DNA from: a virus
Taxonomy: Duplodnaviria > Caudoviricetes
IMG/VR virus record: IMGVR_UViG_3300029319_000053
Span: 1-57,682 of that record
Length of the DNA: 57,682 nt
Direction: 5' to 3' (one strand)
Part shown: in pieces, positions 15,400 through 31,246 of the stretch
Layout of the letters: each line of letters starts with the position of its first letter
Numbering within the stretch: position 1 is the stretch's first letter
Made by a program: the position numbers and the translations under genes
Notes under the pieces: generated by a model
Seen by the model: only the letters and a program-made list of their open reading frames with translations
Databases searched by the model: none
What the model was told of the DNA's origin: nothing

Positions 15400-16105
15400 G
15401 GTCACGGAGGATTTAGAACTGGGGCTAGTACCCGCATGGTCATACTCCGCTTTAAAAACATTTGAATCTTGCGCTTATCGCACTTATATATCTAAAGTAA
15501 AACGCGTACAAGAAGACTATGGTCCAGCTGCTGAGCGTGGCACACGAATACACGATGAAGCAGAACGTTACGTACGTAGCGAAATCTCTGAGCTACCAGA
15601 GTCACTCAAAAAATTTTCACAAAAATTTTCAGAACTAAAACAACTTTTTGCAGATGGAAAAGTCCAAACTGAAGGAGAATGGGGGTTTACCACTTCTTGG
15701 GAACCGACAGGTTGGATTTCTCCTGATACTTGGGCTCGTGTAAAATTAGATGCACTTGTATGTGAAACTGACACGTCAGCTAGAGTTATAGATTACAAAA
15801 CAGGTAAACAGTTTGGTAATGAAATTGCGCACAGTCAACAAGCACTTATCTATGCTATAGGTACATTCTTTATGTTTCCTGATTTAGAAATAGTAAACAC
15901 AGAACTATGGTATTTAGATCATGGTACTACTATGGAACAAACCTATACGCGAGATGAAGCTATGATCTTTATGCCCAAACTGCATGAGCGAGCAGTAGCT
16001 ATGACTACAGCTACTAAGTTTCCACCAAATCCTTCTACTTACAATTGTAGGTGGTGTTCATTTGGTAAAGGACCAGAACCCCATTGTGAATGGGGAATAT
16101 ATTAG
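15350..16105 (+). CDS. PD-(D/E)XK exonuclease, Cas4/AddB-like with four-Cys cluster
   Basis: WSYSALKTFESC, RGTRIH, KLD, IDYKTG, QxxxYA, CRWC...C. Confidence 0.9.
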   Translation: MDNLTQPNRPDLIATVEVTEDLELGLVPAWSYSALKTFESCAYRTYISKVKRVQEDYGPAAERGTRIHDEAERYVRSEISELPESLKKFSQKFSELKQLFADGKVQTEGEWGFTTSWEPTGWISPDTWARVKLDALVCETDTSARVIDYKTGKQFGNEIAHSQQALIYAIGTFFMFPDLEIVNTELWYLDHGTTMEQTYTRDEAMIFMPKLHERAVAMTTATKFPPNPSTYNCRWCSFGKGPEPHCEWGIY

Positions 16106-16162
16106 TTATAATAAATAAGTTGTACTCACCCAACTAACACAGAGTACTACGGAGAATGAAAG

Positions 16163-17512
16163 ATGAACGATGTTACAACCATCCCTGCGCCTTATGCGCA
16201 CCAAAAAACAACTACAGATTTTATAACCAACACTAAAACGTGTTTGATTACTTCAGATCCTGGCACTGGTAAAACACGCGCAGTGTTGGACGCTCATGCT
16301 ATACTTGGAGGCAAGACATTAGTCTTAGCACCACTTTCAATATTGGAAGCGGCATGGGGAGAGGACATATACAAGTTCCAACCCGAAATAAAATATGGAG
16401 TAGCTTATGCAAAAAACCGTAAACAAGTATTTGAAGATGATGAAAATGAAATGGTCATCACTAATTTCGAAGCTGTTAACTTTCTATCTAAAAATACACA
16501 CTACTGTGAGCAATTCGATACAATCGTTATTGACGAGTTTACCGCTTTTAAAAATCGGGAAGCCAAACGCAGTAAAAATCTCAAAAAAATTATCTCATAT
16601 TTTACTAATAGGATTGCCATGTCTGGTACTCCTAATAGTAATACTATTCTAGATATCTGGCACCCAGCGCTTCTCATCGATGATGGGAAGCGACTAGGTA
16701 CTAGGTTCTATGCTTTTAGACACCAAGTTTGCACGCCAAAGTTCAATGGCTTTGCTAATGAATGGATAGACAAACCAGGCATAGAAGAAGCGGTAGCAGA
16801 TAAACTTTCTGATATATCTATACGTTTTGCATTGTCCGATTGCATAGATCTACCAGATAATATTGTACGTACAGTTAATACAAAACTAACACCAAATATA
16901 CAAAAACAATATAAAACACTAGCTGATGAGTCAGTCTTATATACTAAATCTGGCACAGTAAACGCTGTAAATGCAGCCGCCCGTGTCAAGAAGTTACTCC
17001 AGCTTGTTACGGGCGCAGTGTACGATGAAGATGGTGTGGTCCAATTTGTACACCAAGAAAGATACGACATAGTTATGACACTCGTAAATCAACGTGCGCA
17101 CAGCTTAGTAGCATTCAATTGGAAACACGAGCGTGATGCATTGGTAGAGTTAGCCAACAAAGAAGGTATTACATATGATGTTATTGATGGCACTGTACCT
17201 GCTGAACGTAGAAAAGATATAGTCGCTAGATATCAGGCTGGACAAATTAAAGTTTTATTCTGTCACCCACAATCTGCATCGCACGGCCTTACTCTTACAC
17301 GTGCAAGCACTGTAATCTGGTGTTCACCAACATACAACGCTGAGCACTACCAACAATTCAATCAGCGTATATACAGAGCAGGCCAAACACAAAAGACTGA
17401 AACAATACTTATTCAAGCCAGAGGCACTTGGGAACCTGAGGTATACAAAAAACTCAATACCAAGTTAGGTCGTATGGAAAACTTATTACATATTCTTAAG
17501 GAGATATCATGA
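16163..17512 (+). CDS. SNF2-like SF2 helicase
   Basis: DPGTGKT, VIDE, SGTP, HGLTL, QFNQRIYRAGQ. Confidence 0.93.
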   Translation: MNDVTTIPAPYAHQKTTTDFITNTKTCLITSDPGTGKTRAVLDAHAILGGKTLVLAPLSILEAAWGEDIYKFQPEIKYGVAYAKNRKQVFEDDENEMVITNFEAVNFLSKNTHYCEQFDTIVIDEFTAFKNREAKRSKNLKKIISYFTNRIAMSGTPNSNTILDIWHPALLIDDGKRLGTRFYAFRHQVCTPKFNGFANEWIDKPGIEEAVADKLSDISIRFALSDCIDLPDNIVRTVNTKLTPNIQKQYKTLADESVLYTKSGTVNAVNAAARVKKLLQLVTGAVYDEDGVVQFVHQERYDIVMTLVNQRAHSLVAFNWKHERDALVELANKEGITYDVIDGTVPAERRKDIVARYQAGQIKVLFCHPQSASHGLTLTRASTVIWCSPTYNAEHYQQFNQRIYRAGQTQKTETILIQARGTWEPEVYKKLNTKLGRMENLLHILKEIS

Positions 17513-17877
17513 AAAAATTAAATGATTTATTATCAGAAGTAACTAAAGTAAGAACAGAAATAAAATCTGTACAAGCTGAAGAAAAACTTCTTAAAACACA
17601 ACAACGCGAGTTAGAAAGTCAAATATCTATTAGAATGCAAGAGCAGGGGCTCGATAAAATTTCTAATGATGTTTGTACAATCTCACTTAAAAATGAGATT
17701 GTGCCCACTGTAGAAGATTGGGACGCGTTACATCAACACATTATTGATACAAATCAATTTGAGTTGTTGCAAAAACGTATGTCTGCAACCGCCTACAGAG
17801 AACTAATAACTTCTGGTATGGATGTACCAGGTGTTAAAAGTACGGAGCTGACTAGAGTTAACTTTAGATCAGCATAA
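17509..17877 (+). CDS. Conserved phage replication-module protein (coiled coil plus VEDWD...VPGV)
   Basis: AAGGAG RBS; pattern common beside SNF2/SSB genes. Confidence 0.8.
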   Translation: MKKLNDLLSEVTKVRTEIKSVQAEEKLLKTQQRELESQISIRMQEQGLDKISNDVCTISLKNEIVPTVEDWDALHQHIIDTNQFELLQKRMSATAYRELITSGMDVPGVKSTELTRVNFRSA

Positions 17878-17908
17878 TTATAATTAGATGAAAAAAGGAG
17901 AACGTTCG

Positions 17909-18589
17909 ATGTCTAATGATATAAGTATAGTAACAAGTGAGATGCCTGCTCACGTTAAACAAGGCAACAATCTGGGTAATGAAAACATTAACTCAGAACA
18001 TTTGTCTACTCCACGTTTGAAACAGCTACAGCAGTTATCAAACGAAGTAGATGAAAACCACAGTGAATATATAGAAGGAGCCAAAGTTGGTGACTTTATA
18101 AACACTGTAACCAAAGAAAGCTACGGTAAAGAACTTTACGTAGTCAACGTACACTTCAGAGAAGAGTATGTTGTATGGGTAAAAAGAGAGAAAGGTGGTG
18201 GCTTAGTAGGTACATTCCCTACACAAGCAGAAGCTATTAAGTATCTTGAAGACGGTGGTAACAAGGTCGAAGATCATGAAATCACACAGACTCAAACTCA
18301 TACTTTGTTAAAAATAGATGAAGCAACAGGAGAAGTATCAGAAATACCTTTCTTGTTTGACTGTTCTTCTTCTAAGCTTAGAGTATCTAGAGAATGGAAT
18401 ACTCAAATAATGAAGCTTGGTGGAGACAGATTTGCTTCTTTATGGAAACTTTCATCTGTTCAAACAGCTAACAAAGCAGGACAGAAGTTCATGAACATAT
18501 CTGTTTCTAACGTTGGTTGGTTGAAAGAATCTGCTTACAATGTTGCAAAAGAGTTTTATGAAAAAACTTTTGCTACTCAAACTAAGTAG
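17909..18589 (+). CDS. Putative ssDNA-binding/annealing protein (start 17909)
   Basis: AAGGAG RBS; G.ENI...L..PRLKQLQ.LS.EV pattern; position in the replication module. Confidence 0.6.
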   Translation: MSNDISIVTSEMPAHVKQGNNLGNENINSEHLSTPRLKQLQQLSNEVDENHSEYIEGAKVGDFINTVTKESYGKELYVVNVHFREEYVVWVKREKGGGLVGTFPTQAEAIKYLEDGGNKVEDHEITQTQTHTLLKIDEATGEVSEIPFLFDCSSSKLRVSREWNTQIMKLGGDRFASLWKLSSVQTANKAGQKFMNISVSNVGWLKESAYNVAKEFYEKTFATQTK

Positions 18590-18602
18590 TTATATCTCGT
18601 AC

Positions 18603-18630
18603 GGGTGCGACATATTCTGTCGCACCCTTG
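18603..18630 (+). terminator. Hairpin GGGTGCGACA/TGTCGCACCC
   Basis: 10-bp perfect stem just after the 18589 stop. Confidence 0.7.
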
Positions 18631-18651
18631 TACGTATGCTATACTCCTTGT

Positions 18652-19050
18652 GTGAAAGAAAAGGAGTTCATAAACAAAGTGCATAGACACTTATCTAAAG
18701 AAGTTTATCGTTGGAAGATAAACGATCCTTACCACGGCGGTGTGCCTGATACTTATTACTCAGGTCCAAATAGTAATTGTTGGATAGAATACAAATACAA
18801 ACACGCGCTGCCTGCAAAGTGCACGTCAAAGATAAAAATTAATTTATCAGAACAACAACGCATTTGGTTAACACGTCAAAAAGAACATGGAGTATTTACG
18901 TACACAGTTTTTGCATCTCAAGATCTAGTGTACGTAATGGAAGATTTTACAATTAAAGAAATTACTTTAAAAGAATTTAACAAAAAAGCAGTATCTTTTA
19001 AAAATTTTATAGAAGCACTCACAAAACATTGTTTAGGAGATAAAAAATGA
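18652..19050 (+). CDS. Holliday-junction resolvase/VRR-NUC-like nuclease (likely GTG start 18652)
   Basis: KEKEF, GGVPD, WIEYK, LSEQQRIWL motifs; TGCTATACT extended -10 just upstream. Confidence 0.8.
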   Translation: MKEKEFINKVHRHLSKEVYRWKINDPYHGGVPDTYYSGPNSNCWIEYKYKHALPAKCTSKIKINLSEQQRIWLTRQKEHGVFTYTVFASQDLVYVMEDFTIKEITLKEFNKKAVSFKNFIEALTKHCLGDKK

Positions 19051-19274
19051 AAGACATGGTTAACTCACCACCACACTACAACTCTGGGGATATAGAATGC
19101 ATAGACGCAATCAAAGAAAGTATGACACTTGAAGCATTTAAAGGTTATTTAAAAGGCAACATTCAAAAGTATATTTGGCGATATGAAGCTAAAAAAGGTG
19201 TTGAAGACTTAAAAAAAGCCCAATGGTACTTAAATAGACTCATAAAAACCTTAGAAAAAACCAAAGTTACGTAG
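19047..19274 (+). CDS. DUF3310 protein (T7 gp1.7-like nucleotide kinase family)
   Basis: DMVNSPPHY...IECIDAI...GNIQKYIWRY..K.GVEDLKKAQWYL. Confidence 0.9.
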   Translation: MKDMVNSPPHYNSGDIECIDAIKESMTLEAFKGYLKGNIQKYIWRYEAKKGVEDLKKAQWYLNRLIKTLEKTKVT

Positions 19275-19368
19275 CACGCACGGAGATGCTCTGTATTGAA
19301 TTTTAAGTATTTTTGATATCAGCACAAGGACTATGTTCTTAAAATGCGTTAGACGCGATTCTGTGAGG

Positions 19369-19596
19369 TCATTTTCTTTTAAAAGACCTATTTTTTGATC
19401 TATGTTGCAAAACTACATTACTTCTTGAATTATTAGCAGGATTTCCATCTACATGATGTACATCTATAACACTTCCTTTTCTAACTCTACCCTCTCTTAA
19501 CATTTGCCTGCGTATTTTATTACGAGCTGCTCGTCTTTTCTTTTGTTCTGGAGACGAATGGTAGTTTGCATATTCGCTTTTATAGTTTCTAGTCAT
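19369..19596 (-). CDS. Small HNH endonuclease-like protein
   Basis: RNYKSEY...RAARN...DVHHVDGNPANN...N...NR. Confidence 0.85.
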   Translation of the reverse strand: MTRNYKSEYANYHSSPEQKKRRAARNKIRRQMLREGRVRKGSVIDVHHVDGNPANNSRSNVVLQHRSKNRSFKRK

Positions 19597-21348
19597 TTAT
19601 ACAGTATACACTTTTAATGGTTTCTCTTTACCTTTTACTTGAATCTTTCCGTGTGGGGAACATTTGTCCACTTTTTCTGCTGTACGTTCTCCAATAAGAA
19701 TATCCACTCCATATTTTTTAGTTGCACTTTCTAATCGTGCAGCTATATTCACAGCATCTCCTATAGCTGAATAATCAAATCTTGTATTACTGCCCATGTT
19801 TCCTACTACAGCTTCACCCGTATTTATACCTATACCTATGGCAATTGGTTCAGGCAATTCTTTCTGCAGCATACGCATTGCCGTGCGCATATCACGAGCA
19901 CAGGCGACAGCACGTTGTTCATGTTTATCAATCATTAGGGGGGAATTGAATATGGCCATACATGCGTCGCCTATGAATTTGTCCACCATCCCACCGTGGG
20001 CCTGGATGCACGTAACTTGTTCAGTTAATACTCTATTCATTATTTCTGTTACTTGTTCAGGTTCTAACTTTTCAGATAAGTTTGTAAATCCCCTAACATC
20101 AGTAAACAAAAACGTGCAAGTTCTACGTTCTCCTCCTAATTTAAGTAAGCTAGGATCTTTTTGTAATCGTGCAACTTGTCTGGGATCCAGATAGTGCTCG
20201 AACTGTTTTTTTATCTGTTGTCTTAATTTATATTGTTCCCCAAACCTTAACCAAAATTCTTGTACGGATGTAAGTGTTATAGCTACTGCGCTATAACTAA
20301 AGTCTATAAGTATATTATTTCGTACAAACCATACTGCAGCTATAGCAATACTTGTATACAGAACAATCATACCAACCATAGTGCCTGCAACGGGTAAACT
20401 ACGTATTATAATTATGCTTAATATTAAACATCCTATCAGTATAAGTAATTCATATAATAGGCTTGCACCCGGTATTTGAGGCACATTTACTGTTAAACTT
20501 TCAGCCATTGCAGCTTGTACTTCATGCGGATACAACAACCCAGCTGGCGTAGCTATTTGAGGCATGACACCTTTTGCAGTCACACCCACAAACACAAACC
20601 TATCTTTTACATCCATCTCTTGAAGCGTAGTTCGTGGAGTATCACTCCATGTTACCCATCGTCTTCCTATTTTATCTACTGGTATTTGTGCATAATTAGG
20701 TAAAGTAAGCTCTACAATCTCACTCTTCTGGCCCTTAATAATGTACGTATCTGACCCAGATATCACCTTCATAACTTCCATACCAAATGCCGGCGTCCAA
20801 CCATCTGGTGTTTGTAACAATAAAGGTAATCTTCTTACTAATTTATCTACATCTGTTCGTGCAACAGCCAAGCCCTGGCTGCTAACATTTGCAAGTTCGT
20901 ACGTATTTTGTATCACACCCTGTGCAGGAATCGCTTGTACGGGAATCCCATCGCCTAATATAACTGTGCCTGTTGTTGGGGGGTAGTTCCCATTATCATT
21001 TTCAAACATTGCAAGAACGCTTGGTGTGCCTGCCAACGCATCAGCAAAAGCTTTATCTCCACCAAATCTATCTGGTTGAGGAAAGGCGACGACCCAACCC
21101 ACGCCCCAAGCACCTGCCTCTATGAGGTCTGAATGAATTTCAGCAAGTTCTTGACGAGGGAACGGCCAGCCGCCCATCATGGAAACATCTTCTTCTGTTA
21201 TATCTAGTAATACAAAAGTGCCAGAAGGTTCAGGTATCTGCACAAGAGCATCAAATGTTTTTAACTTAAGGACTTCGAGAGCTTGCCAATTAAATAATAA
21301 TGGCATACATAGTATTGGTATGCTAAGTAACGAAATCCATTTCTTCAT
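19597..21348 (-). CDS. CHASE2-domain class III adenylate cyclase
   Basis: N-terminal TM; CHASE2 motifs GGWPFPR, DRFGGD, DVDKLVRRLPL, TPAG...EVQA; three TM helices; catalytic FTDVRGFT, DKFIGD, YSAIGDAVNIAARLE. Confidence 0.95.
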   Translation of the reverse strand: MKKWISLLSIPILCMPLLFNWQALEVLKLKTFDALVQIPEPSGTFVLLDITEEDVSMMGGWPFPRQELAEIHSDLIEAGAWGVGWVVAFPQPDRFGGDKAFADALAGTPSVLAMFENDNGNYPPTTGTVILGDGIPVQAIPAQGVIQNTYELANVSSQGLAVARTDVDKLVRRLPLLLQTPDGWTPAFGMEVMKVISGSDTYIIKGQKSEIVELTLPNYAQIPVDKIGRRWVTWSDTPRTTLQEMDVKDRFVFVGVTAKGVMPQIATPAGLLYPHEVQAAMAESLTVNVPQIPGASLLYELLILIGCLILSIIIIRSLPVAGTMVGMIVLYTSIAIAAVWFVRNNILIDFSYSAVAITLTSVQEFWLRFGEQYKLRQQIKKQFEHYLDPRQVARLQKDPSLLKLGGERRTCTFLFTDVRGFTNLSEKLEPEQVTEIMNRVLTEQVTCIQAHGGMVDKFIGDACMAIFNSPLMIDKHEQRAVACARDMRTAMRMLQKELPEPIAIGIGINTGEAVVGNMGSNTRFDYSAIGDAVNIAARLESATKKYGVDILIGERTAEKVDKCSPHGKIQVKGKEKPLKVYTV

Positions 21349-22433
21349 CCTGACCCCTGTGTGATTGTAATAGTAGAATTACCTCCACCATTAACTACAA
21401 TCTGTTGGTATTTACCATCCTGTATTAAGATAATAGTGTAACCTTGAGCACTGTTTACCGTCAACTGTGCATTTTGATTGACCTTTCTTTGGAATGCAAT
21501 TTGTTCGCCTTGCAATAAAGTAATTATTTGAGTTTCTAAATCTTGTCCTATTTCTGTGCCTTGTATTGAAGTACCTACAGTCAATTTTTTAGTATCTAAC
21601 TCATCTATTTCTTCTATAATTTCTAATAAATCTTCAAAAAAGTTTATATCTAAAAAGTTTATATCTAGCTCTGTAAACTCTAATGTATCCTCAGCTAAAT
21701 AATCTTGCTCTAGCTCATTAAACTCTAAATAGTCTATATCTAATATAGCTCCGCTATCTGCTACGGACGTTGTGGATGACTCTGTGGATAAGTCTTGTTC
21801 GTCCGGAGGCGTAACAATAAGCATGTTATCTATTACATCTAAAGTAAGATCAAGTATTACAGGTTTGCTTGGGGTTGTTTCCCATACTTCTACAGTTGTA
21901 GCTTGGTAGGGTTTGTTAAGAGTAACGCTACCTGTAGCAGTAGTAACAAGTATCTCACCACTAGAAATACCGTTAGCGTCAGGTAATAAAATAATGAGAG
22001 AACGCCCCAGTTCATCAACCGTGCATGTAAAATCTGTACCTCTGATAGCAATATCAGCGGTAGGTGTGGATAGTCTAATATTCTTTTTATCAATTTTGCC
22101 TAACCTACTGCTTATAAATCTAGCCGTGCCACTTGCAAATTGCAGAGCCATTTTACCTTTTGAAGGATCCGGGTCAAATATATATTCAGTAATAACTAAT
22201 TTAGAGTTTTCAGTTAAACGTACAATAGAGTTGTCCAGGAAAGTAATTCCTACACGGCCCGCATTAGTGCGGACATCGTCCATTTGTTGAATGCCAAAGT
22301 CTAACTCAGCCCCGTAAGACTTGTCTCGTATTACTTCAGCAGAGCCATTTAGCTCAGATATATCTCCAATATTAGCAGCTTGTGCTTGTACCGCCGTCGT
22401 TTTGAATAACGCACACAGTACCATTATTGCCAT
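21345..22433 (-). CDS. Periplasmic FecR-domain protein with acidic C-terminal region (likely start about 22433)
   Basis: Signal-like MAIMVLCALFKTTAVQAQA; D.VRT..G...ITFLDNS.VRL.ENS, TPTADIAIRGTDF. Confidence 0.9.
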   Translation of the reverse strand: MAIMVLCALFKTTAVQAQAANIGDISELNGSAEVIRDKSYGAELDFGIQQMDDVRTNAGRVGITFLDNSIVRLTENSKLVITEYIFDPDPSKGKMALQFASGTARFISSRLGKIDKKNIRLSTPTADIAIRGTDFTCTVDELGRSLIILLPDANGISSGEILVTTATGSVTLNKPYQATTVEVWETTPSKPVILDLTLDVIDNMLIVTPPDEQDLSTESSTTSVADSGAILDIDYLEFNELEQDYLAEDTLEFTELDINFLDINFFEDLLEIIEEIDELDTKKLTVGTSIQGTEIGQDLETQIITLLQGEQIAFQRKVNQNAQLTVNSAQGYTIILIQDGKYQQIVVNGGGNSTITITQGSG

Positions 22434-23070
22434 TAGATATAATTTTAAGCCAGTCCCTAGCCAATGTAGATGATTGCGTAATGTTAAAAGTCCTGCTGTT
22501 GCCTGTTTGGTCAAGATAGAAATATCCATTTTGATATCCACTTCCGTCAAATGTTATTGAGTTAGAGTCCCCATCCACGTCTACATAAGATGTGCCTAGG
22601 TCATAATCAATGTCAAAATCAAACTCGTTGCTATCTCCATTAATTATCCAGTCTAAGTCAAGTGTCGAAGCTAAAGCATTAGTACCAACATTTAAATCAA
22701 AGTCGTTACTAGAACCAGTTACGTCTACATTGTAGTTACCTGAATCTGCGCCATATGTATTGGTTGGGTCTACTTGTATATCGAATACGTTGCTATCTCC
22801 ATCAAACTCAAAAAAGCCTGTAATGCTATCTCCTAAGATATCACCTAAGAATTTGTTTGAGCTACCTATCTGATTTATATCTAAAGTAAGATTTAAACCA
22901 TCAAGATCGAGCGCGGTCATAGTACCACTAACAGCATTTAATCCACCGATGATGTTAGATGAACCTAATTGTTCTATATCTATGTTTGCGTTATTCCCGG
23001 ACTGGTCAACATATACTTCATTGTCAGCATACAAAAAACCAACTAATAGTAAGGGTAAAAGTTTTTTCAT
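22372..23070 (-). CDS. Secreted curlin-like (CsgA/CsgB-like) beta-repeat protein
   Basis: Signal peptide; repeated xDQxGxxN / IxGDSNxFxF units; adjacent to csgG. Confidence 0.75.
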   Translation of the reverse strand: MKKLLPLLLVGFLYADNEVYVDQSGNNANIDIEQLGSSNIIGGLNAVSGTMTALDLDGLNLTLDINQIGSSNKFLGDILGDSITGFFEFDGDSNVFDIQVDPTNTYGADSGNYNVDVTGSSNDFDLNVGTNALASTLDLDWIINGDSNEFDFDIDYDLGTSYVDVDGDSNSITFDGSGYQNGYFYLDQTGNSRTFNITQSSTLARDWLKIISNGNNGTVCVIQNDGGTSTSC

Positions 23071-23882
23071 TTATAACTCCAATATCCAGCTTGTTCACCC
23101 TCCTTGATAATTTCTAATACGGCTGTTTCTATGGCAGAACGCAAAGCAAGTCCTCCAGACTCATTTCGCACCACACCACTTTCTATCTCTACTAATTCAG
23201 TACCAGCTTCAATAAAACGAAACACGTCGTCTGTTAATGATACACTAAGAATGGTCTTAGATACTAGTTTTTCAAGTAACACCTGACCTGAGTTTACAGA
23301 CACAAGACGCAATTGTATGGTTATTGAGTCTGTTCTATAAGCCTTAGATATACCAATCCCTAAATATCTAGCACCTGCCCCACCAGATGTTACATTAGAT
23401 TCATATGAAACTACTGACCCTTCTAATAATAAACCTGCAAACAACAAAGTACCTATCTTTGTATTGTCTTTATTCTCAGTTCTACCACTACGGATTATCT
23501 GGCGTTCTTTAGTTAAGTTATCTAACCCACCTCTTTCTACTACGGTAAAAAAACCCCCATTTTGTTTACATGCGTCTTTAAGAGCTTTGATAAGATAGGC
23601 GCTAGGTTGTTGAGTTATAGCGGTAGAGAAGCTAGCATACATAGAATTACTAAGTCTTTGACCTGTTTGGTCTGTAAATGCGCTTCCGTACACAGCTACA
23701 GTTGGTTTTCTTTCAGGCGTACGGCATTCTTGCAAGTCTGTTATAACTAGCTCTTCTATTTGTGCTGATTCGATTTTCCGTATCGGGGCTATGTTATTTT
23801 CTATAGGGTCTTCTATTAATAACGAAGCGCAACTAGAAAGTAAAAGAACCGATAGGTACCGTAATTTCTGTAGTATTGCCAT
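23067..23882 (-). CDS. csgG: CsgG/HfaB family curli secretion channel lipoprotein
   Basis: Lipobox LSSC; F.DQTGQR, STAITQ, FTVVERGGLDNLTKERQIIRS, GGAGARYLGIG, LRLVSVNSG. Confidence 0.93.
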   Translation of the reverse strand: MAILQKLRYLSVLLLSSCASLLIEDPIENNIAPIRKIESAQIEELVITDLQECRTPERKPTVAVYGSAFTDQTGQRLSNSMYASFSTAITQQPSAYLIKALKDACKQNGGFFTVVERGGLDNLTKERQIIRSGRTENKDNTKIGTLLFAGLLLEGSVVSYESNVTSGGAGARYLGIGISKAYRTDSITIQLRLVSVNSGQVLLEKLVSKTILSVSLTDDVFRFIEAGTELVEIESGVVRNESGGLALRSAIETAVLEIIKEGEQAGYWSYK

Positions 23883-24351
23883 CTGGGTCTGTTATCTTTA
23901 AGGTTATCATTGTACCATCTTCACTTACACTATACTCAATAGTATTACCCATCAATTCAATGATACCTTGTGTTTGAGGAGTGTCTCCAAACAAAGCATC
24001 TACTAGTTGTCTCGATAACTGTGCATATATTCTAGACTCTAAGTTACGTATAAATCTTGCAAGCGTAGTGTTTTCTGCATCTCTTTTAAGCTGTTCTTTA
24101 TAAGCTTTTAGTTCTGCTTTAATATTTTCTTTACGATTAAACTCTTGGTTCTCAATAGTAAGATAATGTGAACTAGTGCCTACTCCACTAAAACTAGGGT
24201 TTTTAAAGCCATGCACTATTTGATCTGCTTTTAAATTTAAACCTATTATTCCTAAAAATAAAATAAGGCCTATTACTAATACAACTTTATACAGAACTAT
24301 TTTTTCTGCATATTCTTTTTCTAATTGTTTTTTAGTCTTTTCTTTGGTCAT
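23833..24351 (-). CDS. csgF: CsgF family curli assembly protein
   Basis: Hydrophobic leader, then ADQIVHGFKNPSFSG (CsgF F.NP.FGG); F...LESRIYAQLS; ITD.DG.TTEITVP. Confidence 0.88.
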   Translation of the reverse strand: MTKEKTKKQLEKEYAEKIVLYKVVLVIGLILFLGIIGLNLKADQIVHGFKNPSFSGVGTSSHYLTIENQEFNRKENIKAELKAYKEQLKRDAENTTLARFIRNLESRIYAQLSRQLVDALFGDTPQTQGIIELMGNTIEYSVSEDGTMITLKITDPDGNTTEITVPIGSFTF

Positions 24352-24682
24352 CTCTATCCGCCTTGGCAATTTTATTGCTATCTATAAGTTGAGGCACGCC
24401 AAGAATAGTTTTAATCAAAGTGTCTTGTCTTATAATTTCATTGTCTAAACTACGCACCCTGTCTATTAATGCTACTAAAATACCATGCTGTGAGTCAAGT
24501 TTAGTGCCAAGCCTTTGTTCTACGGCGCTTATTTGTTCTGCTACTTTATCATCGACAGTGTCTAATTTTGTTTCCATACCGTCAACAATACGCATTATTA
24601 ATTTATAAATAAACCACCCTAAACCTAGAGCAGCTGCAATAGGAAAACCTACTTCTTGGATTACAGTGACTGCTGATTCCAT
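24332..24682 (-). CDS. Single-TM plus coiled-coil protein (holin-like or cassette anchor)
   Basis: IQEVGFPIAAALGLGWFIY TM, then coiled coil; overlaps the csgF start. Confidence 0.7.
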   Translation of the reverse strand: MESAVTVIQEVGFPIAAALGLGWFIYKLIMRIVDGMETKLDTVDDKVAEQISAVEQRLGTKLDSQHGILVALIDRVRSLDNEIIRQDTLIKTILGVPQLIDSNKIAKADRDDQRKD

Positions 24683-25152
24683 CAGTCTTGTTTATTGGAG
24701 GCCCCAAAATAAAATGATATTACTGCAGAAGCTAAGCCACCAAGATAGCCTAAGACCAAATTAATTAGAGCCTCACTGTTTTGTTCTGGTGGTTGAAGAG
24801 TTACGAGAAAAATATAACCAAGAAAACCACCAACCATGGCTATACCTATAATTCTAGCTGTCCAATCTTTACTAAATGTGTTTCGTGCGTGTTGTTTTTC
24901 TTGAGCTTCTAAATCGTATAGATCTATGTCTAACTGTTTCATTTTAGTTTCAAACTCTTTTTCTGCTTTTTTGATTTCAATTAGCTGTTCAGGAGTAGCA
25001 TTTTGTATAGCTTTCTCTAAAGAAGCAGGATCATTTTCTACACCTAATACTTTTGATATGACATCTCCTGCCATACCACCTAACGGTCCGCCTAGCGCAG
25101 TCCCTAATGTTGGAGCGACGCTCCCTATTATATTACCCAGTAACTTCTTCAT
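24682..25152 (-). CDS. Holin-like membrane protein
   Basis: VAPTLGTALGGPLGG N-terminus; C-terminal TMs ending VISFYFGAS. Confidence 0.7.
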   Translation of the reverse strand: MKKLLGNIIGSVAPTLGTALGGPLGGMAGDVISKVLGVENDPASLEKAIQNATPEQLIEIKKAEKEFETKMKQLDIDLYDLEAQEKQHARNTFSKDWTARIIGIAMVGGFLGYIFLVTLQPPEQNSEALINLVLGYLGGLASAVISFYFGASNKQD

Positions 25153-25555
25153 ATTTTCCAAGCTTTAACAGCTCCTCCTTGTTTATTAAATGTTGTGCTT
25201 CTATATCATCTTTGCTTTGCCCTGTGTAGGCAACAGCAAGGTAGTTATCAATAAGCGCTTGGTTTAGATCTACGTCATCTGCAACGATAACCCCTAGAAC
25301 TCTACCGAACTTCCCTTTCTTGTCTAGTTTTGTTTGTATTTTTAAATCATCAGCGTGCAGGATAGCATCTGATAAAAACTTACCAGCTAGTTTACCTCTA
25401 GCTTTTTCGTCTAAATCTCTTGTTCGTGATTCTGGCGTGTCGATTCCGTATAACCTGACACGAGACTTATATGATATATCAAAACCTAAATCTATTATAG
25501 CGTCGACAGTGTCTCCATCTACCACCCGGGTTATTTCGCACCTATACTCGTACAT
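25133..25555 (-). CDS. Thermonuclease (SNase-like) family protein
   Basis: RVVDGDTVD, RVRLYGIDTPE, GKFGRVLG. Confidence 0.93.
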   Translation of the reverse strand: MYEYRCEITRVVDGDTVDAIIDLGFDISYKSRVRLYGIDTPESRTRDLDEKARGKLAGKFLSDAILHADDLKIQTKLDKKGKFGRVLGVIVADDVDLNQALIDNYLAVAYTGQSKDDIEAQHLINKEELLKLGKYEEVTG

Positions 25556-25746
25556 TATTTACCCACTGCTTTTTGAGCTTTTTTGTGAGCAGCTCTAAAA
25601 GTAGAACCTTTCATCATGAGGTTTTTCATATACTTCATGTGCTTTGCACTATGGTGTTTGGAATGTCGCTTCATAGTAGCCTCCTGCCTTTTAGTCAAAG
25701 CTTTTTTCTTTGTAGGTTTTTTCCTTGTTTTTCTTTTATACGCCAT
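25555..25746 (-). CDS. Lys/His-rich small basic protein
   Basis: ORF track; TAATG coupling; HSKHHSAKHM...AHKKAQK. Confidence 0.75.
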   Translation of the reverse strand: MAYKRKTRKKPTKKKALTKRQEATMKRHSKHHSAKHMKYMKNLMMKGSTFRAAHKKAQKAVGK

Positions 25747-25757
25747 AGTTTATTCTA

Positions 25758-26102
25758 TCAATCTCCTGTTATGGTATCAACTTCTGCTGGGCCATAAATT
25801 TTCCAAGTAAATATAGCATCTAAACGTGTTTCGTTTTCTATATCTTTATACCATTGTATAACTTGGGCATTTGTTAAATCTTTTATTAAAATAAAATCAG
25901 AAGGTATTCCGTTATCTTTTATAGAAAAAGGACTAAATACTTTAGAAAAATTTTCAGTAAGTGTTTTAGAACTGTCTGCTTTATCTGTAGCTGTAACTGC
26001 AACAGTTATCTCCGTAACTATAGCTGTGTCGTCATGTTCACTAAGTGGAGTTGTATGCACACCAACATAAGCATAACTGTAATTAAAATTATGTATTGCC
26101 AC
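25758..26102 (-). CDS. Hypothetical tail-associated protein
   Basis: GGAGG RBS; follows the tail tip gene. Confidence 0.7.
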   Translation of the reverse strand: MAIHNFNYSYAYVGVHTTPLSEHDDTAIVTEITVAVTATDKADSSKTLTENFSKVFSPFSIKDNGIPSDFILIKDLTNAQVIQWYKDIENETRLDAIFTWKIYGPAEVDTITGD

Positions 26103-28033
26103 TATGCCTCCGAGAACCTATAAAACGCAAATTGTACAGATGAAAGGAATCTGTTACTTCCATCTCCTTGCGCTAGTATATATAAAGCCATAGTAGAACT
26201 AGTGCTACTTGTTTTTCTTACAGATACGTCTAACTGCACCATATGATTTGTGCTATCAAATCTATCAATAGCTGACCAAAACTGTGATTGTCCTGAATGG
26301 TATTGAGCAGATCCACTATCTGCAATAGGTACATTCATATTAGAGTTATTTGAGTACGCAAAATCACTTCTTAAATCAAAACTAGAACCAGACCCATAAC
26401 TACCATCTCCTATAACTATACTAAGTGTTTTAACTTGTCCATTGCTACCAAAAACACGAACGTAACCACTGTATATACCAGTCGCTGTGCCAATATCAGC
26501 TACGTGTACTAGACGCATAGTATTATTAGCCCAAGGTCCCACACTAGATACAGTGCCTCTAGCTATGGGTAAAACTAAATTTGTTACATTAATTTTATCA
26601 GCAGTAATAGTATTAGAATCAATTCTATCCGCAGATAAAAAACCTGCATTTATTTTAGTTGCGTTTAAATCATTTATCTTTGCGTTAGTGATTTGTGCAT
26701 CACCTACGAGCGCAGTTGTAATATTTGCCGTCGCAATTTTAGCCGTTGTAATTTGAGCGTCTCCAATCTTAGCCGTTGTAATCGCTGCGTTTGAAATTTT
26801 AGCACTTTGAATTGTTCCGTCTAAAATACGTGCATTTGTTATAGCTCCGTCTTGGATACGCGCGCTGTCTATAAATACTGAACCCCCACTAACTATAAAA
26901 GGTGCTACGTTAGTACTACCACTAAATATAGCAAACTTATCTGCTTGAAATTGCACAAAAGATTGTGCTCCTGAGCCATCACTAGCATTAGAGCCAATCA
27001 CCATTCCAGCTACTGATTTACTATTGTTAGACTCTGTAGCTACTTGCAATACAAACATTGCATTAAGATCACCTGTATGACTAGCTGTAGTAGTATTCAA
27101 CGTGTTAATTGAACTAGTGTTGCCATTAACAGTAGAGGTCAAACTAGTTACAGAAGATGCAGTAGCATTTTGTGCATTAGTTACTGTAACAATGTCAGAC
27201 TGAGCAGTAGCCATAGCCGCAGTTAAAGTGCTACCTGTAAAACTAGTACTACCAAAAAGATTAACTAGTGTTGCATCACGTCCTGCCACCCAAGCATTAT
27301 TAGAAGCATTTCGTGTATATATTTGACCGTCATCAGTATCAAACCAAATATCAAAAGCCCCTATAGATGAACCGTCTGCTCTGGTACTTGGTGCACTAGA
27401 AGATTTTATTACGTTAGCAGCTGCTGCTGTTGTAGTTATTAAATTAAATCCAGGTAAGTTAGATAAACTTTCTGATAGCTGTTGCATAACAGCTCCTATA
27501 TTTTCTATAGTATCTGCTTTTGTGCCGTTAGTTTGATTAAAAGGCCCTCTTACATTACTGGTGCTTACAAACCTAACCCAATAAAAATATGTCTGATCAT
27601 AGCCAACGGGGTCTGTAATAATAAAAGAAGCAGTAGTTGTTATAAGAGTTGCAGTTCCTACCTCATCATCTCTTGAACGCCACACCTCTGTAAAAGCATG
27701 GTTACTATACTGAGCGGGGTTCCAAGTAACTATTATTTCTGTAAAAGCACCAGAAGCCTCTAGGCCTGTAGGAGCAGGAGGAATAGTTAAATCGCCTTTT
27801 TGATCATCGTTGGGTATAAAATCAATAAGACCATTTGGGTCAAACGGTCTCTCACTTAGACGTTTTGCTAAACCGCTTTCTACAAGTTCTCTAAGAGTAA
27901 CAGCTCTATCTAAAGGGTCGCCACGTCTACCTAATCTAATCTCTTGAGCTTCTCTCATGGACTCAAGAGTATCTCTTAATTCTCTATCTATTTTTGGTGG
28001 GATGTTTTTTAAGGCAGGAACTTTAGTAGACAT
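26102..28033 (-). CDS. Tail tip/fibre protein (FN3-like domain, coiled coil, DUF1983-like region, ITTAKI repeats)
   Basis: PPAPTGL...YFYWVRFVS; FQADKFAI; repeated ITxAKI. Confidence 0.8.
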   Translation of the reverse strand: MSTKVPALKNIPPKIDRELRDTLESMREAQEIRLGRRGDPLDRAVTLRELVESGLAKRLSERPFDPNGLIDFIPNDDQKGDLTIPPAPTGLEASGAFTEIIVTWNPAQYSNHAFTEVWRSRDDEVGTATLITTTASFIITDPVGYDQTYFYWVRFVSTSNVRGPFNQTNGTKADTIENIGAVMQQLSESLSNLPGFNLITTTAAAANVIKSSSAPSTRADGSSIGAFDIWFDTDDGQIYTRNASNNAWVAGRDATLVNLFGSTSFTGSTLTAAMATAQSDIVTVTNAQNATASSVTSLTSTVNGNTSSINTLNTTTASHTGDLNAMFVLQVATESNNSKSVAGMVIGSNASDGSGAQSFVQFQADKFAIFSGSTNVAPFIVSGGSVFIDSARIQDGAITNARILDGTIQSAKISNAAITTAKIGDAQITTAKIATANITTALVGDAQITNAKINDLNATKINAGFLSADRIDSNTITADKINVTNLVLPIARGTVSSVGPWANNTMRLVHVADIGTATGIYSGYVRVFGSNGQVKTLSIVIGDGSYGSGSSFDLRSDFAYSNNSNMNVPIADSGSAQYHSGQSQFWSAIDRFDSTNHMVQLDVSVRKTSSTSSTMALYILAQGDGSNRFLSSVQFAFYRFSEA

Positions 28034-30024: not shown

Positions 30025-30028
30025 AAAA

Positions 30029-30484
30029 TCATTTTCCAGTGTTTAGAACAGATTCCTGTAGTTCTTGACTCCTTCTTCCTACTTGAGTAAACCATTTACT
30101 ATCTTGCATCTCAACAGCCATTAGACTCCATTGATGTTTTCTACAAGCGTCTAACATTTTTTTAAACTTAGAAAGCCTCGTGCCACCTAAATTAAAACAC
30201 ATGTTAACAAGCACGTGTTGTATGTTTTCAGGTAAATTATAAAAACCTTCATCTGTACCAAACACATGTATTGCTTCTGCAAGATGTTTATTAAAATCAT
30301 CTTCATAATACATGTCTACTACTTCTTGTGACACTTTTGTACCAACTTCCCAATCATACTCAGGATCTTCTGGTTTACAAAGATGGCCTATACCTAGCGT
30401 TTTAAAACCTAAACTATCTTCATAGATTTCTAAAACTTCACCCTCATGGCGTTTTATTTCAGCTTTACATTTTTCAATGTTCAT
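30029..30484 (-). CDS. T4-type lysozyme (GH24) endolysin
   Basis: HEG..L.IY.DSLG..TLGIGHL, NMCFNLG, EMQDSKW..QVG.R. Confidence 0.93.
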   Translation of the reverse strand: MNIEKCKAEIKRHEGEVLEIYEDSLGFKTLGIGHLCKPEDPEYDWEVGTKVSQEVVDMYYEDDFNKHLAEAIHVFGTDEGFYNLPENIQHVLVNMCFNLGGTRLSKFKKMLDACRKHQWSLMAVEMQDSKWFTQVGRRSQELQESVLNTGK

Positions 30485-30486
30485 AC

Positions 30487-30735: not shown

Positions 30736-30776
30736 ATAAATACTCCTTATTAAGTTATGGTTTGTTTAGTATATCC

Positions 30777-30953: not shown

Positions 30954-30955
30954 AA

Positions 30956-31234: not shown

Positions 31235-31246
31235 ATTATTCTCCTT

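What the first reader, a model, noticed from the sequence alone, without database searches (positions are those of the whole stretch)
19597..24682. Phage-borne curli-channel / FecR / CHASE2 adenylate cyclase cassette: candidate trans-envelope cAMP signalling system
Seen: six co-directional overlapping genes (TM protein, csgF, csgG, curlin-like, FecR-domain protein, CHASE2 cyclase) at the end of the late arm. The cyclase keeps both metal Asp residues (FTD, IGD), the ATP-specifying Lys (DKF), the class IIIb Ser/Thr position and the catalytic N..AR. Known: csgF/csgG occur in T4-like SAR11 and OM43 myophages, with function unclear. CHASE2 cyclases pair with FecR-domain envelope proteins in bacteria, e.g. 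Sinorhizobium NsrA/CyaK. Inference: this is not a fimbrial operon (no csgE/csgD, a single curlin-like gene). It may instead be an outer membrane to periplasm to inner membrane relay that makes cAMP in the infected cell, perhaps sensing superinfection or surfaces, or rewiring CRP regulation and lysis timing. Its presence in a podovirus-like genome is unusual.
Basis: partly seen in the sequence, partly recalled or inferred. Interest (0 to 1): 0.9.

Follow-up and report, generated by a model that had tools for sequence, protein, structure and literature searches.

The report
Known phage curli-pore plus cAMP-sensor cassette
This ocean phage carries an already published gene set that gives the infected cell a curli-type outer-membrane pore, a fibre protein and a membrane sensor that makes cAMP; the genes are real and intact, but what they do has never been tested.

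Summary
Six abutting or overlapping minus-strand genes at 19597-24682 encode a small membrane protein, CsgF, CsgG, a curlin-like protein, an exported FecR-fold protein and a CHASE2 class IIIb adenylate cyclase with all catalytic residues.

The cassette is not new. Wittmers et al. 2022 (PMC9599517) described it in HTVC023P-type podoviruses and SAR11 myophages. It is also in HTVC008M and Melnitz. This scan had noted it 20 times before on other DNA.

In 23 of 23 related viral contigs with enough flank, gene order is identical.

What I add:
- FecR plus CHASE2-cyclase is a bacterial pairing, seen in 39 of 80 loci. In 5 of 80 it sits beside a type I secretion system, and in 4 of these the FecR ORF lies in the same locus.
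- No bacterial locus examined joins it to CsgG (0 of 80, 0 of 7).
- The curlin-like model best matches a solved CsgA (Z 18.3).
- The N-terminus of the FecR protein resembles the periplasmic plug of LapA/MpIBP adhesins. This fits a trans-envelope tether read by the cyclase, but does not prove it.
- The published "histidine kinase" label for the small protein is unsupported.

Function remains untested.

The parts
24332..24682 (-). Small membrane protein (116 aa): one N-terminal hydrophobic segment, then a helical, charged tail. It is always the first gene of the cassette. The literature labels it 'histidine kinase', which is not supported here.
   Evidence: No Pfam family at E<=0.01. Only a sub-threshold NCBIfam hit. 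PHROGs 18771 and 9829, of unknown function. Atlas neighbours are virus-only clusters without a Pfam family. Present upstream of CsgF in 23 of 23 viral loci with enough flank, and at 30-34% identity in HTVC008M and Melnitz.
23833..24369 (-). CsgF homologue (T8SS pore-cap / fibre-nucleation factor) with a signal-like hydrophobic segment. The mature N-terminus reads ...GFKNPSFSG.
   Evidence: Pfam CsgF 4.4e-15, 56.5 bits against a cut-off of 25.8. PHROG 35372 9e-43. Sequence read. No PDB hit by phmmer.
23067..23882 (-). CsgG homologue: outer-membrane lipoprotein pore, with lipobox L-S-S-C at residues 15-18.
   Evidence: Pfam CsgG 1.2e-49. NCBIfam CsgG 1.2e-43, below the equivalog cut-off. E. coli CsgG structures 3x2r/6l7a 3.7e-39 over residues 48-269, with the F-S-T-A core of the constriction loop kept.
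22372..23070 (-). Curlin-like secreted beta-solenoid (232 aa): signal peptide, about eight G-x-x-N/Q repeats, two conserved C-terminal Cys.
   Evidence: Curlin_rpt 0.0067, below cut-off. CsgB model 0.00098, below cut-off. Invariant G/N/Q ladder in 26 sequences. AF2 model pLDDT 83, pTM 0.81, all-beta. Best structural match is Pontibacter CsgA 8c50, Z 18.3, 197 aligned, 23% identity, rmsd 8.8. Foldseek found nothing at E<=0.001.
21345..22433 (-). Exported FecR-fold protein (362 aa from the ATG at 22433). It has a signal peptide, an N-terminal beta domain (about residues 19-208), a conserved acidic stretch that is largely disordered in the model (about 205-290) and a small C-terminal beta domain (about 295-360).
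   Evidence: Pfam FecR 2.4e-12. Alignment of 25 sequences. AF2 model: pLDDT about 80-90 in both domains and below 50 in 205-261. PupR cell-surface signalling domain 6ovk Z 15.6, rmsd 2.5, 137 aligned, residues 49-208. MpIBP RIN plug 5ix9 Z 5.1, rmsd 2.6, 67 of 76 residues, 28% identity, residues 19-89.
19597..21348 (-). CHASE2 receptor-type class IIIb adenylate cyclase. Reading the sequence gives an N-terminal hydrophobic segment, a periplasmic CHASE2 domain (about 22-295), a hydrophobic block (about 296-375) and a cytoplasmic cyclase domain (about 400-583).
   Evidence: Pfam CHASE2 6e-31 and Guanylate_cyc 5.7e-22. PDB Cya2, CyaB and CyaC 1e-25 to 5e-38. D417, K457, D461, N534 and R538 are invariant in 33 viral sequences.
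24682..25161 (-). Neighbour, not shown to be part of the cassette: a putative holin-like membrane protein whose gene always abuts the cassette.
   Evidence: GTA_holin_3TM 0.0061, below cut-off. PHROG 1544, unknown function. A homologue was seen in 41 of the 80 viral loci. In 10 it lies directly upstream of the 116-aa gene, and in 31 directly downstream of the cyclase.

Best explanation
Identity (about 0.95). This is one more copy of the published viral T8SS-FecR-adenylate cyclase cassette. It is carried at the end of the late operon of a roughly 58-kb podovirus of the KPP25/HTVC023P kind.

Mechanism (about 0.4; steps marked). The cassette joins two bacterial modules that I did not find joined in any of the bacterial loci I examined.
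- Module 1 is a curli-type secretion set. The lipoprotein CsgG and its cap CsgF form an outer-membrane pore, which exports a CsgA-like beta-solenoid subunit to the surface of the infected cell. This is inferred from homology.
- Module 2 is an envelope sensor: a Sec-exported FecR-fold protein plus an inner-membrane CHASE2 adenylate cyclase. The pairing is shown by recurrent gene adjacency in bacteria; physical contact is inferred.

I propose that the FecR-fold protein reports the state of the pore, fibre or cell surface to the periplasmic CHASE2 domain, so that the infected cell makes cAMP in response to an envelope or surface cue. The cyclase is predicted to be active on ATP because all six canonical residues are present. 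No activity has been measured.

What reads the cAMP is unknown. No cNMP-binding protein was found among the phage's ORFs.
For: - Domains and residues.
- The same order of all six genes in 23 of 23 viral loci with at least 4.7 kb upstream of the cyclase. A FecR gene lies upstream of the cyclase in 52 of 52 loci with at least 1.3 kb upstream.
- At least 597 of 600 scanned viral stretches encode a cyclase relative.
- The cassette is also in the HTVC008M and Melnitz myophages.
- Among the 80 bacterial loci kept as closest to the cyclase, 39 have a FecR ORF within the flanks. In 25 it is a roughly 1200-aa FecR (FecR+TPR in the one scanned) directly upstream and co-directional.
- 5 of 80 have OEP+HlyD+ABC type I secretion genes next door. 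In 4 of these a FecR ORF lies in the same locus. The three scanned by Pfam are FecR fused to cadherin/Big_9 or RTX repeats.
- So a CHASE2 cyclase, a FecR protein and a dedicated outer-membrane export route recur together, with the export route swapped.
- FecR N-domain fold: PupR signalling domain, Z 15.6.
- Curlin-like fold: CsgA, Z 18.3.
- Experimental precedent for outer-membrane protein to CHASE2 cyclase to cAMP to Clr in S. meliloti (passages).
- The published supplement lists metatranscriptome RPKM values for CsgF, CsgG, Curlin_rpt, CHASE2, Guanylate_cyc and FecR.
- Small contigs of two RNA libraries lie on the cyclase and on CsgG/CsgF of this window. This is weak evidence, because DNA can be present in such libraries.
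Against: - No experiment exists for any step.
- No complex prediction could be run, so FecR-CHASE2 contact rests on gene adjacency alone.
- 41 of the 80 bacterial cyclase loci showed no FecR ORF with my viral-derived profile.
- The published survey says the cyclase is not always present in podovirus cassettes, so the pore and fibre part can stand without it. My 80 viral loci were chosen by the cyclase and cannot test this.
- No cNMP-binding domain was found in 67 ORFs of the window scanned against Pfam. I could not examine the host's cAMP receptors.
- Melnitz has Ser in place of the catalytic Asn.
- The acidic stretch of the FecR protein is strongly conserved, which argues that it is an interaction motif rather than a passive linker.
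Confidence: 0.4

Rival explanations
1. The published reading: a complete, rewired curli (T8SS) system whose product is the fibre itself. Its proposed roles are aggregation of infected and sibling cells, or a barrier against superinfection. FecR, the cyclase and the small 'kinase' act upstream as regulators of curli production, not as a sensor output.
For: PMC9599517 main text and PMC7029224. The curlin-like protein has a CsgA-like repeat ladder and fold. CsgG and CsgF are canonical. In 7 of 7 alphaproteobacterial CsgG loci CsgF is adjacent, and curlin-like ORFs were seen in 3 of 7, so module 1 is an ordinary bacterial T8SS.
Against: There is no transcription factor in the cassette or any cNMP-binding protein in the phage, so a cAMP-to-curli regulatory path has no visible reader. 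The genes are co-transcribed by position, which leaves little for a regulator to regulate. The FecR protein lacks the anti-sigma part. The 'kinase' has no kinase domain. The Melnitz authors report no clumping of infected cultures (PMC9004378).
Confidence: 0.3
2. A lysis-timing device: the CsgG (+/- CsgF) pore is a gated outer-membrane or pinholin-like channel that helps trigger or complete lysis.
For: Proposed for Melnitz (PMC9004378). In the podovirus-type contigs the cassette always abuts a putative holin-like gene (10 upstream plus 31 downstream, in the 41 of 80 loci with that gene). In this window it follows that gene and a nuclease at the end of the late arm.
Against: The holin assignment is below cut-off. 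The lysozyme gene lies 5 kb away at 30029-30484. A lysis role explains neither the curlin-like subunit nor the FecR-cyclase pair. The end of a late operon is also a common place for accessory cargo (general knowledge).
Confidence: 0.1
3. An ungated import pore that lets nutrients or cofactors (for example iron complexes) into the periplasm of the infected cell, with FecR as an iron-related regulator.
For: Suggested in PMC7029224 and PMC9599517. No CsgE gate was found in the cassette.
Against: There is no TonB-dependent transducer, ECF sigma factor or anti-sigma domain in the window, so the iron-signalling reading of 'FecR' rests on the Pfam name alone. It does not explain the fibre subunit or the cyclase.
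Confidence: 0.05
4. Assembly chimera or stray host DNA.
For: None found. The record is metagenomic and linear.
Against: Even GC. 23 of 23 independent viral contigs share the synteny, flanked by phage tail, nuclease and holin-like genes. Other runs cover the junctions at even depth. 0 of 80 and 0 of 7 bacterial loci hold the joined cassette.
Confidence: 0.01

Closest known systems
Pelagiphage T8SS (curli) region with FecR and adenylate cyclase (Wittmers et al. 2022, PMC9599517; passages of the main text and one supplementary file seen)
   Same: The same gene order: small membrane protein, CsgF, CsgG, curlin-like, FecR, cyclase. The same kind of carrier: a roughly 58-kb PolA podovirus whose nearest cultured relatives outside the group are Pseudomonas podoviruses. 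The cassette takes 8.8% of this genome, against 7.8 +/- 1.6% reported. CHASE2 appears as a domain label in their supplement.
   Different: This copy has no second curlin-like gene between FecR and the cyclase. I could not place the window in their clades, because no HTVC023P or HTVC027P record appeared among the listed hits (25 and 15 rows). Their 'histidine kinase' and 'iron regulator' labels are not borne out by my tests.
Curli operon of the myophages HTVC008M (KC465899) and Melnitz (MZ577097)
   Same: The same six proteins in the same order, at 30-47% identity.
   Different: The carrier is a T4-like myovirus. There is an extra curlin-like gene between FecR and the cyclase. The cassette lies between the replication and baseplate genes.
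E. coli curli T8SS (CsgG-CsgF-CsgA/B; PDB 6l7a, 3x2r)
   Same: CsgG is about 40% alike over the whole mature protein. The CsgF family is matched. The substrate is a repeat beta-solenoid.
   Different: No CsgE, CsgD or CsgC. There is one fibre gene. It is joined to a FecR protein and a cyclase.
Bacterial FecR + CHASE2 adenylate cyclase gene pairs, including the S. meliloti CHASE2 cyclases CyaD1/D2/K with the outer-membrane protein NsrA
   Same: About 30% identical cyclases of the same architecture, with a FecR ORF in 39 of 80 loci. A trans-envelope route to cAMP is shown genetically in S. meliloti.
   Different: The bacterial partners carry TPR, cadherin/Ig, RTX or Gly-rich tails, not the phage's acidic stretch and C-domain. 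0 of 80 loci have CsgG/CsgF. Whether NsrA has a FecR domain could not be checked.
LapA/MpIBP-type type I-secreted adhesins with an N-terminal retention (plug) module (PDB 5ix9; PMC5550230; bioRxiv 10.1101/198937)
   Same: Residues 19-89 of the phage protein superpose on the plug (Z 5.1, 28% identity). A bacterial FecR-RTX protein beside a CHASE2 cyclase and a type I system matches 5ix9 by sequence (4.3e-4, residues 112-189). It also aligns to phage residues 19-149 (hhalign 9e-12). The layout is the same: folded N-domain, flexible middle, further domain(s).
   Different: The phage protein has a Sec signal peptide and no RTX signal. The pore would be CsgG, not TolC-like. No LapG/LapD was found. 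The profile of the phage family finds nothing in the PDB by sequence.
FecR/PupR cell-surface signalling anti-sigma regulators (PDB 6ovk, 4m0n)
   Same: The fold of the periplasmic signalling domain (Z 15.6 and 14.4).
   Different: No cytoplasmic anti-sigma domain or membrane anchor. No TonB-dependent transducer or ECF sigma factor in the phage.

Membership tests
Class III (IIIb) adenylate cyclase | Two metal-binding Asp residues | tested here: met
   D417 and D461, invariant in 33 viral sequences and aligned to solved cyclases.
Class III (IIIb) adenylate cyclase | Substrate-specifying Lys (ATP), and Ser/Thr in place of Asp (subclass IIIb) | tested here: met
   K457 aligns with the Glu of the guanylate cyclase Cya2 (2w01) and with the Lys of its engineered AC form (6fht). 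S527 aligns with the Thr of CyaB (3r5g). The residue roles are recalled from the literature.
Class III (IIIb) adenylate cyclase | Transition-state Asn and Arg | tested here: met
   N534 and R538 are invariant among the 33 podovirus-type sequences. Melnitz has Ser at the Asn position.
Class III (IIIb) adenylate cyclase | Makes cAMP | not testable with these tools
   Needs an enzyme assay or cya complementation.
CHASE2 receptor | CHASE2 domain between membrane segments, N-terminal to the output domain | tested here: met
   Pfam CHASE2 covers residues 15-312 at 108 bits against a cut-off of 26.3. The hydrophobic segments were read from the sequence; no topology predictor was run.
T8SS pore CsgG | CsgG family match, lipoprotein signal and conserved constriction loop | tested here: met
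   Pfam 168.9 bits. Lipobox LSSC. 3.7e-39 to E. coli CsgG with the FSTA loop core kept; the neighbouring Asn is Ser. The NCBIfam equivalog cut-off was not reached (149.6 against 505).
CsgF | CsgF family match with the N-terminal pore-binding motif | tested here: met
   Pfam 56.5 bits against a cut-off of 25.8. GFKNPSFSG follows the signal-like segment. The E. coli motif it resembles is recalled, not fetched.
Curlin (CsgA/CsgB) | Curlin repeat family match | tested here: inconclusive
   Curlin_rpt scores 16.8 bits against a cut-off of 20.7. The CsgB model scores 18.9 against 165.
Curlin (CsgA/CsgB) | Stacked strand-turn-strand repeats with a Q/N/G ladder (beta-solenoid) | tested here: met
   Invariant G-x-x-N in eight repeats. 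Model pLDDT 83. The best of 48161 chains is CsgA 8c50, Z 18.3, with the next at 16.0.
Curlin (CsgA/CsgB) | Forms amyloid fibres | not testable with these tools
   Needs ThT/Congo red and EM.
FecR-type anti-sigma regulator (iron-citrate signalling) | Periplasmic FecR/PupR signalling domain | tested here: met
   Pfam FecR. 6ovk Z 15.6.
FecR-type anti-sigma regulator (iron-citrate signalling) | N-terminal cytoplasmic anti-sigma domain and membrane anchor, with a cognate ECF sigma factor and TonB-dependent transducer | tested here: not met
   The protein starts with a cleavable-looking signal peptide directly followed by the beta domain. No sigma factor or TonB-dependent receptor was found among 67 ORFs scanned.
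Published pelagiphage T8SS-FecR-AC module | Co-directional small membrane protein, CsgF, CsgG, curlin-like, FecR and cyclase in a phage genome | tested here: met
Histidine kinase (label given to the first gene in the literature) | HisKA/HATPase_c domains | tested here: not met
   At 116 aa, it has no Pfam family at E<=0.01, none in NCBIfam above noise, and no named Atlas cluster at 0.9 or more. 'Histidine kinase' does not occur in the one held supplement.
LapA/MpIBP retention module | N-terminal plug domain of the 5ix9 fold | tested here: inconclusive
   Z 5.1, rmsd 2.6, 67 of 76 residues, 28% identity. Foldseek E 0.11, prob 1.00. There is a transitive sequence link through a bacterial FecR-RTX protein. 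The phage-family profile finds no PDB hit.
LapA/MpIBP retention module | Type I secretion signal and cognate TolC/HlyD/ABC genes | tested here: not met
   None in the window. The protein has a Sec-type signal peptide instead.

The most novel reading that the evidence does not exclude
The FecR-fold protein is a LapA-style stalled substrate. Its folded N-domain stays in the periplasm as a plug under the phage CsgG-CsgF pore. The acidic middle passes through or binds the pore, and the small C-domain reaches the surface beside the curlin fibre. The CHASE2 cyclase reads the plug, so the infected cell turns a pull or an encounter at its surface (another cell, a particle, a superinfecting phage) into cAMP.

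The same logic, with a type I pore in place of CsgG, would explain the bacterial loci that join a CHASE2 cyclase, a FecR-adhesin and a type I system. That would make 'FecR + CHASE2' a general surface-tether sensor.
Probability: 0.2. Interest if true: 0.8.

Novelty: already known. Interest (0 to 1): 0.35.

Why it matters
The cassette is among the most widespread accessory gene sets of ocean phages. The published survey found it at all 65 stations examined, and I found thousands of protein clusters. It takes about 9% of this genome, and it gives the host an envelope structure and a second-messenger source that the known hosts are said to lack.

Knowing whether it builds fibres, times lysis or senses the surface would change how infected SAR11-type cells are understood. 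This copy adds nothing to its known range.

The useful residue of this work is a sharper, testable model: two bacterial modules fused only in phages, and a FecR protein that looks like an adhesin retention plug. It also corrects two published labels, 'histidine kinase' and 'iron regulator'.

Tried and rejected
- Complex prediction for FecR N-domain with the CHASE2 domain was not available.
I ran it later as told.
- Idea that the C-terminus of the FecR protein is a curlin repeat: hhalign of the two families aligned only 10 columns, probability 0.6%. Rejected.
- C-terminal domain of the FecR protein: no named Atlas hit and only Z 3-3.7 matches. Its fold was not tested alone.
- Foldseek of the curlin model against the PDB gave nothing at E<=0.001. 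The CsgA match came from the exhaustive aligner.
- CsgF against the PDB by phmmer gave only noise.
- The promoter scan was at chance (44 found against 43.6 expected), and no convincing terminator lies inside the cassette. This gives no information on separate transcription.
- No tRNA genes in the window, so no host clue.
- I could not identify Pelagibacter genomes among unnamed handles, so I did not test whether hosts have cAMP receptors. A paper search (Pelagibacter + adenylate cyclase + cAMP) listed 4 of 5 papers, none on host cAMP signalling by title.
- The NsrA paper (PMC5952392) is not held.
- RNA runs held only small shares. X1 gave 3 short contigs in the cyclase gene. X2 gave 5 short pieces: one in the cyclase, two in the CsgG/CsgF region, one in the holin-like gene and one in the tail-fibre gene. 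Uncovered parts say nothing.
- No cultured HTVC023P or HTVC027P record appeared among the listed portal or PolA hits (25 of 434 and 15 of 2712 records listed).
- Paper searches that found nothing: CsgG + CHASE2, 'retention module' + FecR, and CHASE2 + adhesin + 'type I secretion'.

Full report
**What is there.** The window is a whole IMG/VR virus record of 57,682 bp, estimated 97% complete. It has a plus-strand replication arm: AAA ATPase, DUF2201 metallopeptidase/VWA, PolA, a CsrA homologue, primase-like protein, PD-(D/E)XK nuclease and SNF2 helicase. It also has a long minus-strand late arm from the large terminase (55836-57479) through portal, capsid, two SU10-type adaptor paralogues, a 1819-aa virion protein, tail fibres, an internal virion protein and a lysozyme.

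The finding lies at the far end of that late arm, after a tail-fibre gene, a DUF7936 protein, a staphylococcal-nuclease homologue and a putative holin-like protein. It is followed only by a 75-aa HNH-like ORF before the two arms converge.

Portal and PolA are closest, at 35-41% identity, to Pseudomonas podoviruses KPP25 and phiR18 and to an uncultured spring-water phage. The published HTVC023P-type pelagiphage group has 'two Podoviridae of Pseudomonas hosts' as outgroup, a mean size of 58.8 kb and 42 +/- 6% G+C. The window fits that description, but I could not place it directly.

- CsgF, CsgG, FecR, CHASE2 and Guanylate_cyc match Pfam above the curated cut-offs.
- The curlin repeat matches below cut-off.
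- The first, 116-aa protein matches nothing.
- PHROGs holds full-length families for five of the six; the curlin-like protein matches none. So the proteins were already in phage genomes when that library was built.

The cyclase aligns to solved class III cyclases at 1e-25 to 5e-38. D417 and D461 are the metal ligands. K457 stands where the guanylate cyclase Cya2 has Glu. S527 stands where CyaB has Thr. N534 and R538 are present. Of these, D417, K457, D461, N534 and R538 are invariant in 33 related viral sequences.

Composition is even across the cassette and its flanks. Contigs of two other public runs cover the whole of 15000-32000 without a dip.

**It is already published.** The cyclase, and with it the whole gene string, is present in Pelagibacter phage HTVC008M and in the four Melnitz records.
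- Zaragoza-Solas et al. 2020 described the CsgF/CsgG cluster in pelagimyophages (PMC7029224, passages).
- Buchholz et al. 2022 proposed a lysis-timing pore for Melnitz, without mentioning FecR or the cyclase in the main text (PMC9004378, passages).
- Wittmers et al. 2022 described exactly this cassette in nine HTVC023P-type podovirus genomes and in the myophages. They list it as 'histidine kinase', CsgF, CsgG, CsgA/B, FecR, an optional second CsgA/B, and adenylate cyclase. They report that it is absent as a unit from bacteria, found at all 65 ocean stations they examined, and expressed in metatranscriptomes (PMC9599517, passages).

The word CHASE2 is not in their main text, but it occurs 83 times as a domain label in the one supplementary file held.

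This scan had already noted the same cassette 20 times in at least 19 other genomes, and every follow-up shown reached the same paper. I had found the paper before that look-up.

**How conserved it is.** Among the 80 loci kept:
- 23 have at least 4.7 kb upstream of the cyclase, and all 23 carry the five upstream genes in the same order and strand.
- 52 have at least 1.3 kb upstream, and all 52 have a FecR gene there.
- In 10 of those 52 a gap of 377-1438 bp separates FecR from the cyclase. That is room for the second curlin-like gene seen in the myophages.

These loci were selected by the cyclase, so they cannot show how often the cassette lacks it.

The FecR protein alone has 7390 relatives at E<=1e-5 among the 8000 candidates scored. 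The best are on contigs of phage size.

A homologue of the putative holin-like gene abuts the cassette in 41 of the 80 loci, 10 before the first gene and 31 after the cyclase.

**Where the parts come from.** The 80 bacterial loci closest to the cyclase are about 30% identical and mostly Alphaproteobacteria.
- Profiles built from the viral proteins find a FecR ORF in 39 of the 80. In 25 it is a roughly 1200-aa protein directly upstream and co-directional.
- The profiles find CsgG, CsgF or curlin in none of the 80.
- Pfam on 59 ORFs from ten of these loci shows that the FecR partners differ in their tails: TPR, cadherin/Big_9, RTX with DUF4114, or none recognised. One has a long Gly/His-rich repeat.
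- In 5 of 80 loci an outer-membrane efflux protein, a HlyD-type adaptor and an ABC exporter lie next to the cyclase. In 4 of these 5 the FecR ORF lies in the same locus. The three scanned by Pfam carry FecR fused to cadherin/Big_9 or RTX repeats.

Conversely, in a sample of 401 alphaproteobacterial genomes, 7 have a strong CsgG (38-49% identity). CsgF is adjacent in 7 of 7, and neither FecR nor the cyclase lies within about 9 kb in any of the 7.

So the cassette is a junction of a curli secretion module and a FecR/CHASE2-cyclase sensor module. In what I sampled, the junction exists only in phages, as the 2022 paper also states.

**The proteins in more detail.**
- *CsgG* has a lipobox and is about 40% alike to E. 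coli CsgG over the mature protein. It keeps the F-S-T-A core of the constriction loop.
- *The curlin-like protein* has a signal peptide, eight repeats with invariant G-x-x-N and flanking Q, and two conserved C-terminal cysteines. Its model (pLDDT 83) is an all-beta solenoid. Of 48,161 representative chains, the best match is the solved CsgA of Pontibacter korlensis: Z 18.3, 197 residues, 23% identity, rmsd 8.8. The next match is an unrelated beta-helix at Z 16.0. Foldseek alone found nothing significant.
- *The FecR protein* starts with a signal peptide, not an anti-sigma domain. Its model has a confident N-terminal beta domain, a low-confidence acidic region whose sequence is nevertheless strongly conserved, and a small confident C-terminal beta domain. 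Residues 49-208 superpose on the cell-surface signalling domain of PupR (Z 15.6, rmsd 2.5, 137 residues) and on a Bacteroidales anti-sigma factor (Z 14.4).
- *The 116-aa first protein* has one hydrophobic segment and a charged helical tail. It has no kinase domain by Pfam, NCBIfam or the Atlas.

**A lead that I did not find in print.** Residues 19-89 of the FecR model superpose on PDB 5ix9: Z 5.1, rmsd 2.6, 67 of 76 residues, 28% identity; Foldseek probability 1.00 at E 0.11.

5ix9 is the periplasmic N-terminal domain of the Marinomonas ice adhesin. It is proposed to be too large to pass the TolC-like pore and so to hold the adhesin on the cell (PMC5550230, passages). It was used as the template for the LapA retention module (bioRxiv 10.1101/198937, passages).

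The match is modest, and the phage-family profile finds nothing in the PDB by sequence. It is backed transitively, however. The FecR-RTX protein that sits beside a CHASE2 cyclase and a type I system in locus L102 hits 5ix9 by sequence (E 4.3e-4, its residues 112-189). The same stretch aligns to phage residues 19-149 (hhalign E 9e-12).

The FecR-type N-domain of these cyclase-linked proteins therefore looks related to an adhesin plug. Searches for 'retention module' with FecR, and for CHASE2 with adhesin and 'type I secretion', found no paper in the held library.

**Most likely working.** I read the cassette as an export module whose state is coupled to a cAMP-producing sensor.
- The pore, the fibre-like substrate, the exported FecR-fold protein and an apparently competent adenylate cyclase are shown by sequence and models.
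- The FecR-cyclase partnership is shown only by recurrent adjacency.
- That the FecR protein links the pore or surface to the CHASE2 domain is inference. It is helped by the S. meliloti precedent (an outer-membrane protein needed for CHASE2 cyclases to respond to an external protein signal). It is also helped by the bacterial loci in which the same sensor pair travels with a different export route.

I put this at about 0.4. The published reading, in which fibres are the product and FecR and the cyclase are its regulators, is at about 0.3. The two are not exclusive.

The lysis-timing idea gains a little from the constant neighbourhood of a holin-like gene, but that assignment is weak.

Nothing shows what reads the cAMP. 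None of 67 ORFs of the window has a cNMP-binding domain. In one bacterial locus, by contrast, a cNMP-binding channel and a cNMP-binding phosphatase sit between the cyclase and its FecR gene (L137).

**Verdict.** The cassette, including its presence in podoviruses, is already known, so novelty is nil for the object itself. The interpretive gain is a sharper mechanistic hypothesis and two corrected labels.

Noticed in passing
window 12722-12907 (+): A 61-aa CsrA homologue (Pfam CsrA 8.6e-13; NCBIfam CsrA 4e-9, below the equivalog cut-off) sits between PolA and the primase-like gene. It is a phage-borne copy of a global RNA-binding regulator.
   Followed up: no
window 5140-6156 and 6901-8010 (+): An AAA ATPase (PHROG 1297) and a DUF2201 metallopeptidase-plus-VWA protein lie two genes apart in the early arm. 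This resembles MoxR/VWA-type pairs.
   Followed up: no
window 49481-50155 and 50158-50871 (-); 35920-38289 (-): There are two tandem SU10-type adaptor paralogues, and a tail-fibre protein with a C-terminal C1q domain.
   Followed up: no
L137:12584-16866: In a Parvibaculum MAG, a cNMP-binding MscS-type channel and a cNMP-binding SpoIIE phosphatase lie between a CHASE2 cyclase and its FecR gene. These are possible local readers of the cAMP. In L090 a GAF-SpoIIE phosphatase lies next to the cyclase.
   Followed up: no
L089:5539-6045 (-): In Rhizobium leguminosarum, a PycTM (Pycsar effector) domain protein lies directly upstream of the FecR-TPR gene that precedes a CHASE2 cyclase.
   Followed up: no
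L100:8371-9693 (-): A FecR-domain protein divergent from a CHASE2 cyclase carries about 250 residues of Gly/His-rich GGKHGPAGGMHGSTGG-type repeats.
   Followed up: no
L009, L010, L012, L014, L017, L018 and others: In 10 of 52 viral loci, 377-1438 bp separate the FecR gene from the cyclase. That is room for the second curlin-like gene annotated in Melnitz and HTVC008M. This window has none.
   Followed up: partly
window 19369-19596 (-): A 75-aa HNH-like ORF (HNH_3 below cut-off; PHROG 4590) follows the cyclase here and in the closest relatives, at 51-93% identity.
   Followed up: no
L001-L002, alignment A1: The Melnitz cyclase has Ser where the other seven aligned sequences have the catalytic Asn. 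It also carries a C-terminal extension of about 75 residues.
   Followed up: no
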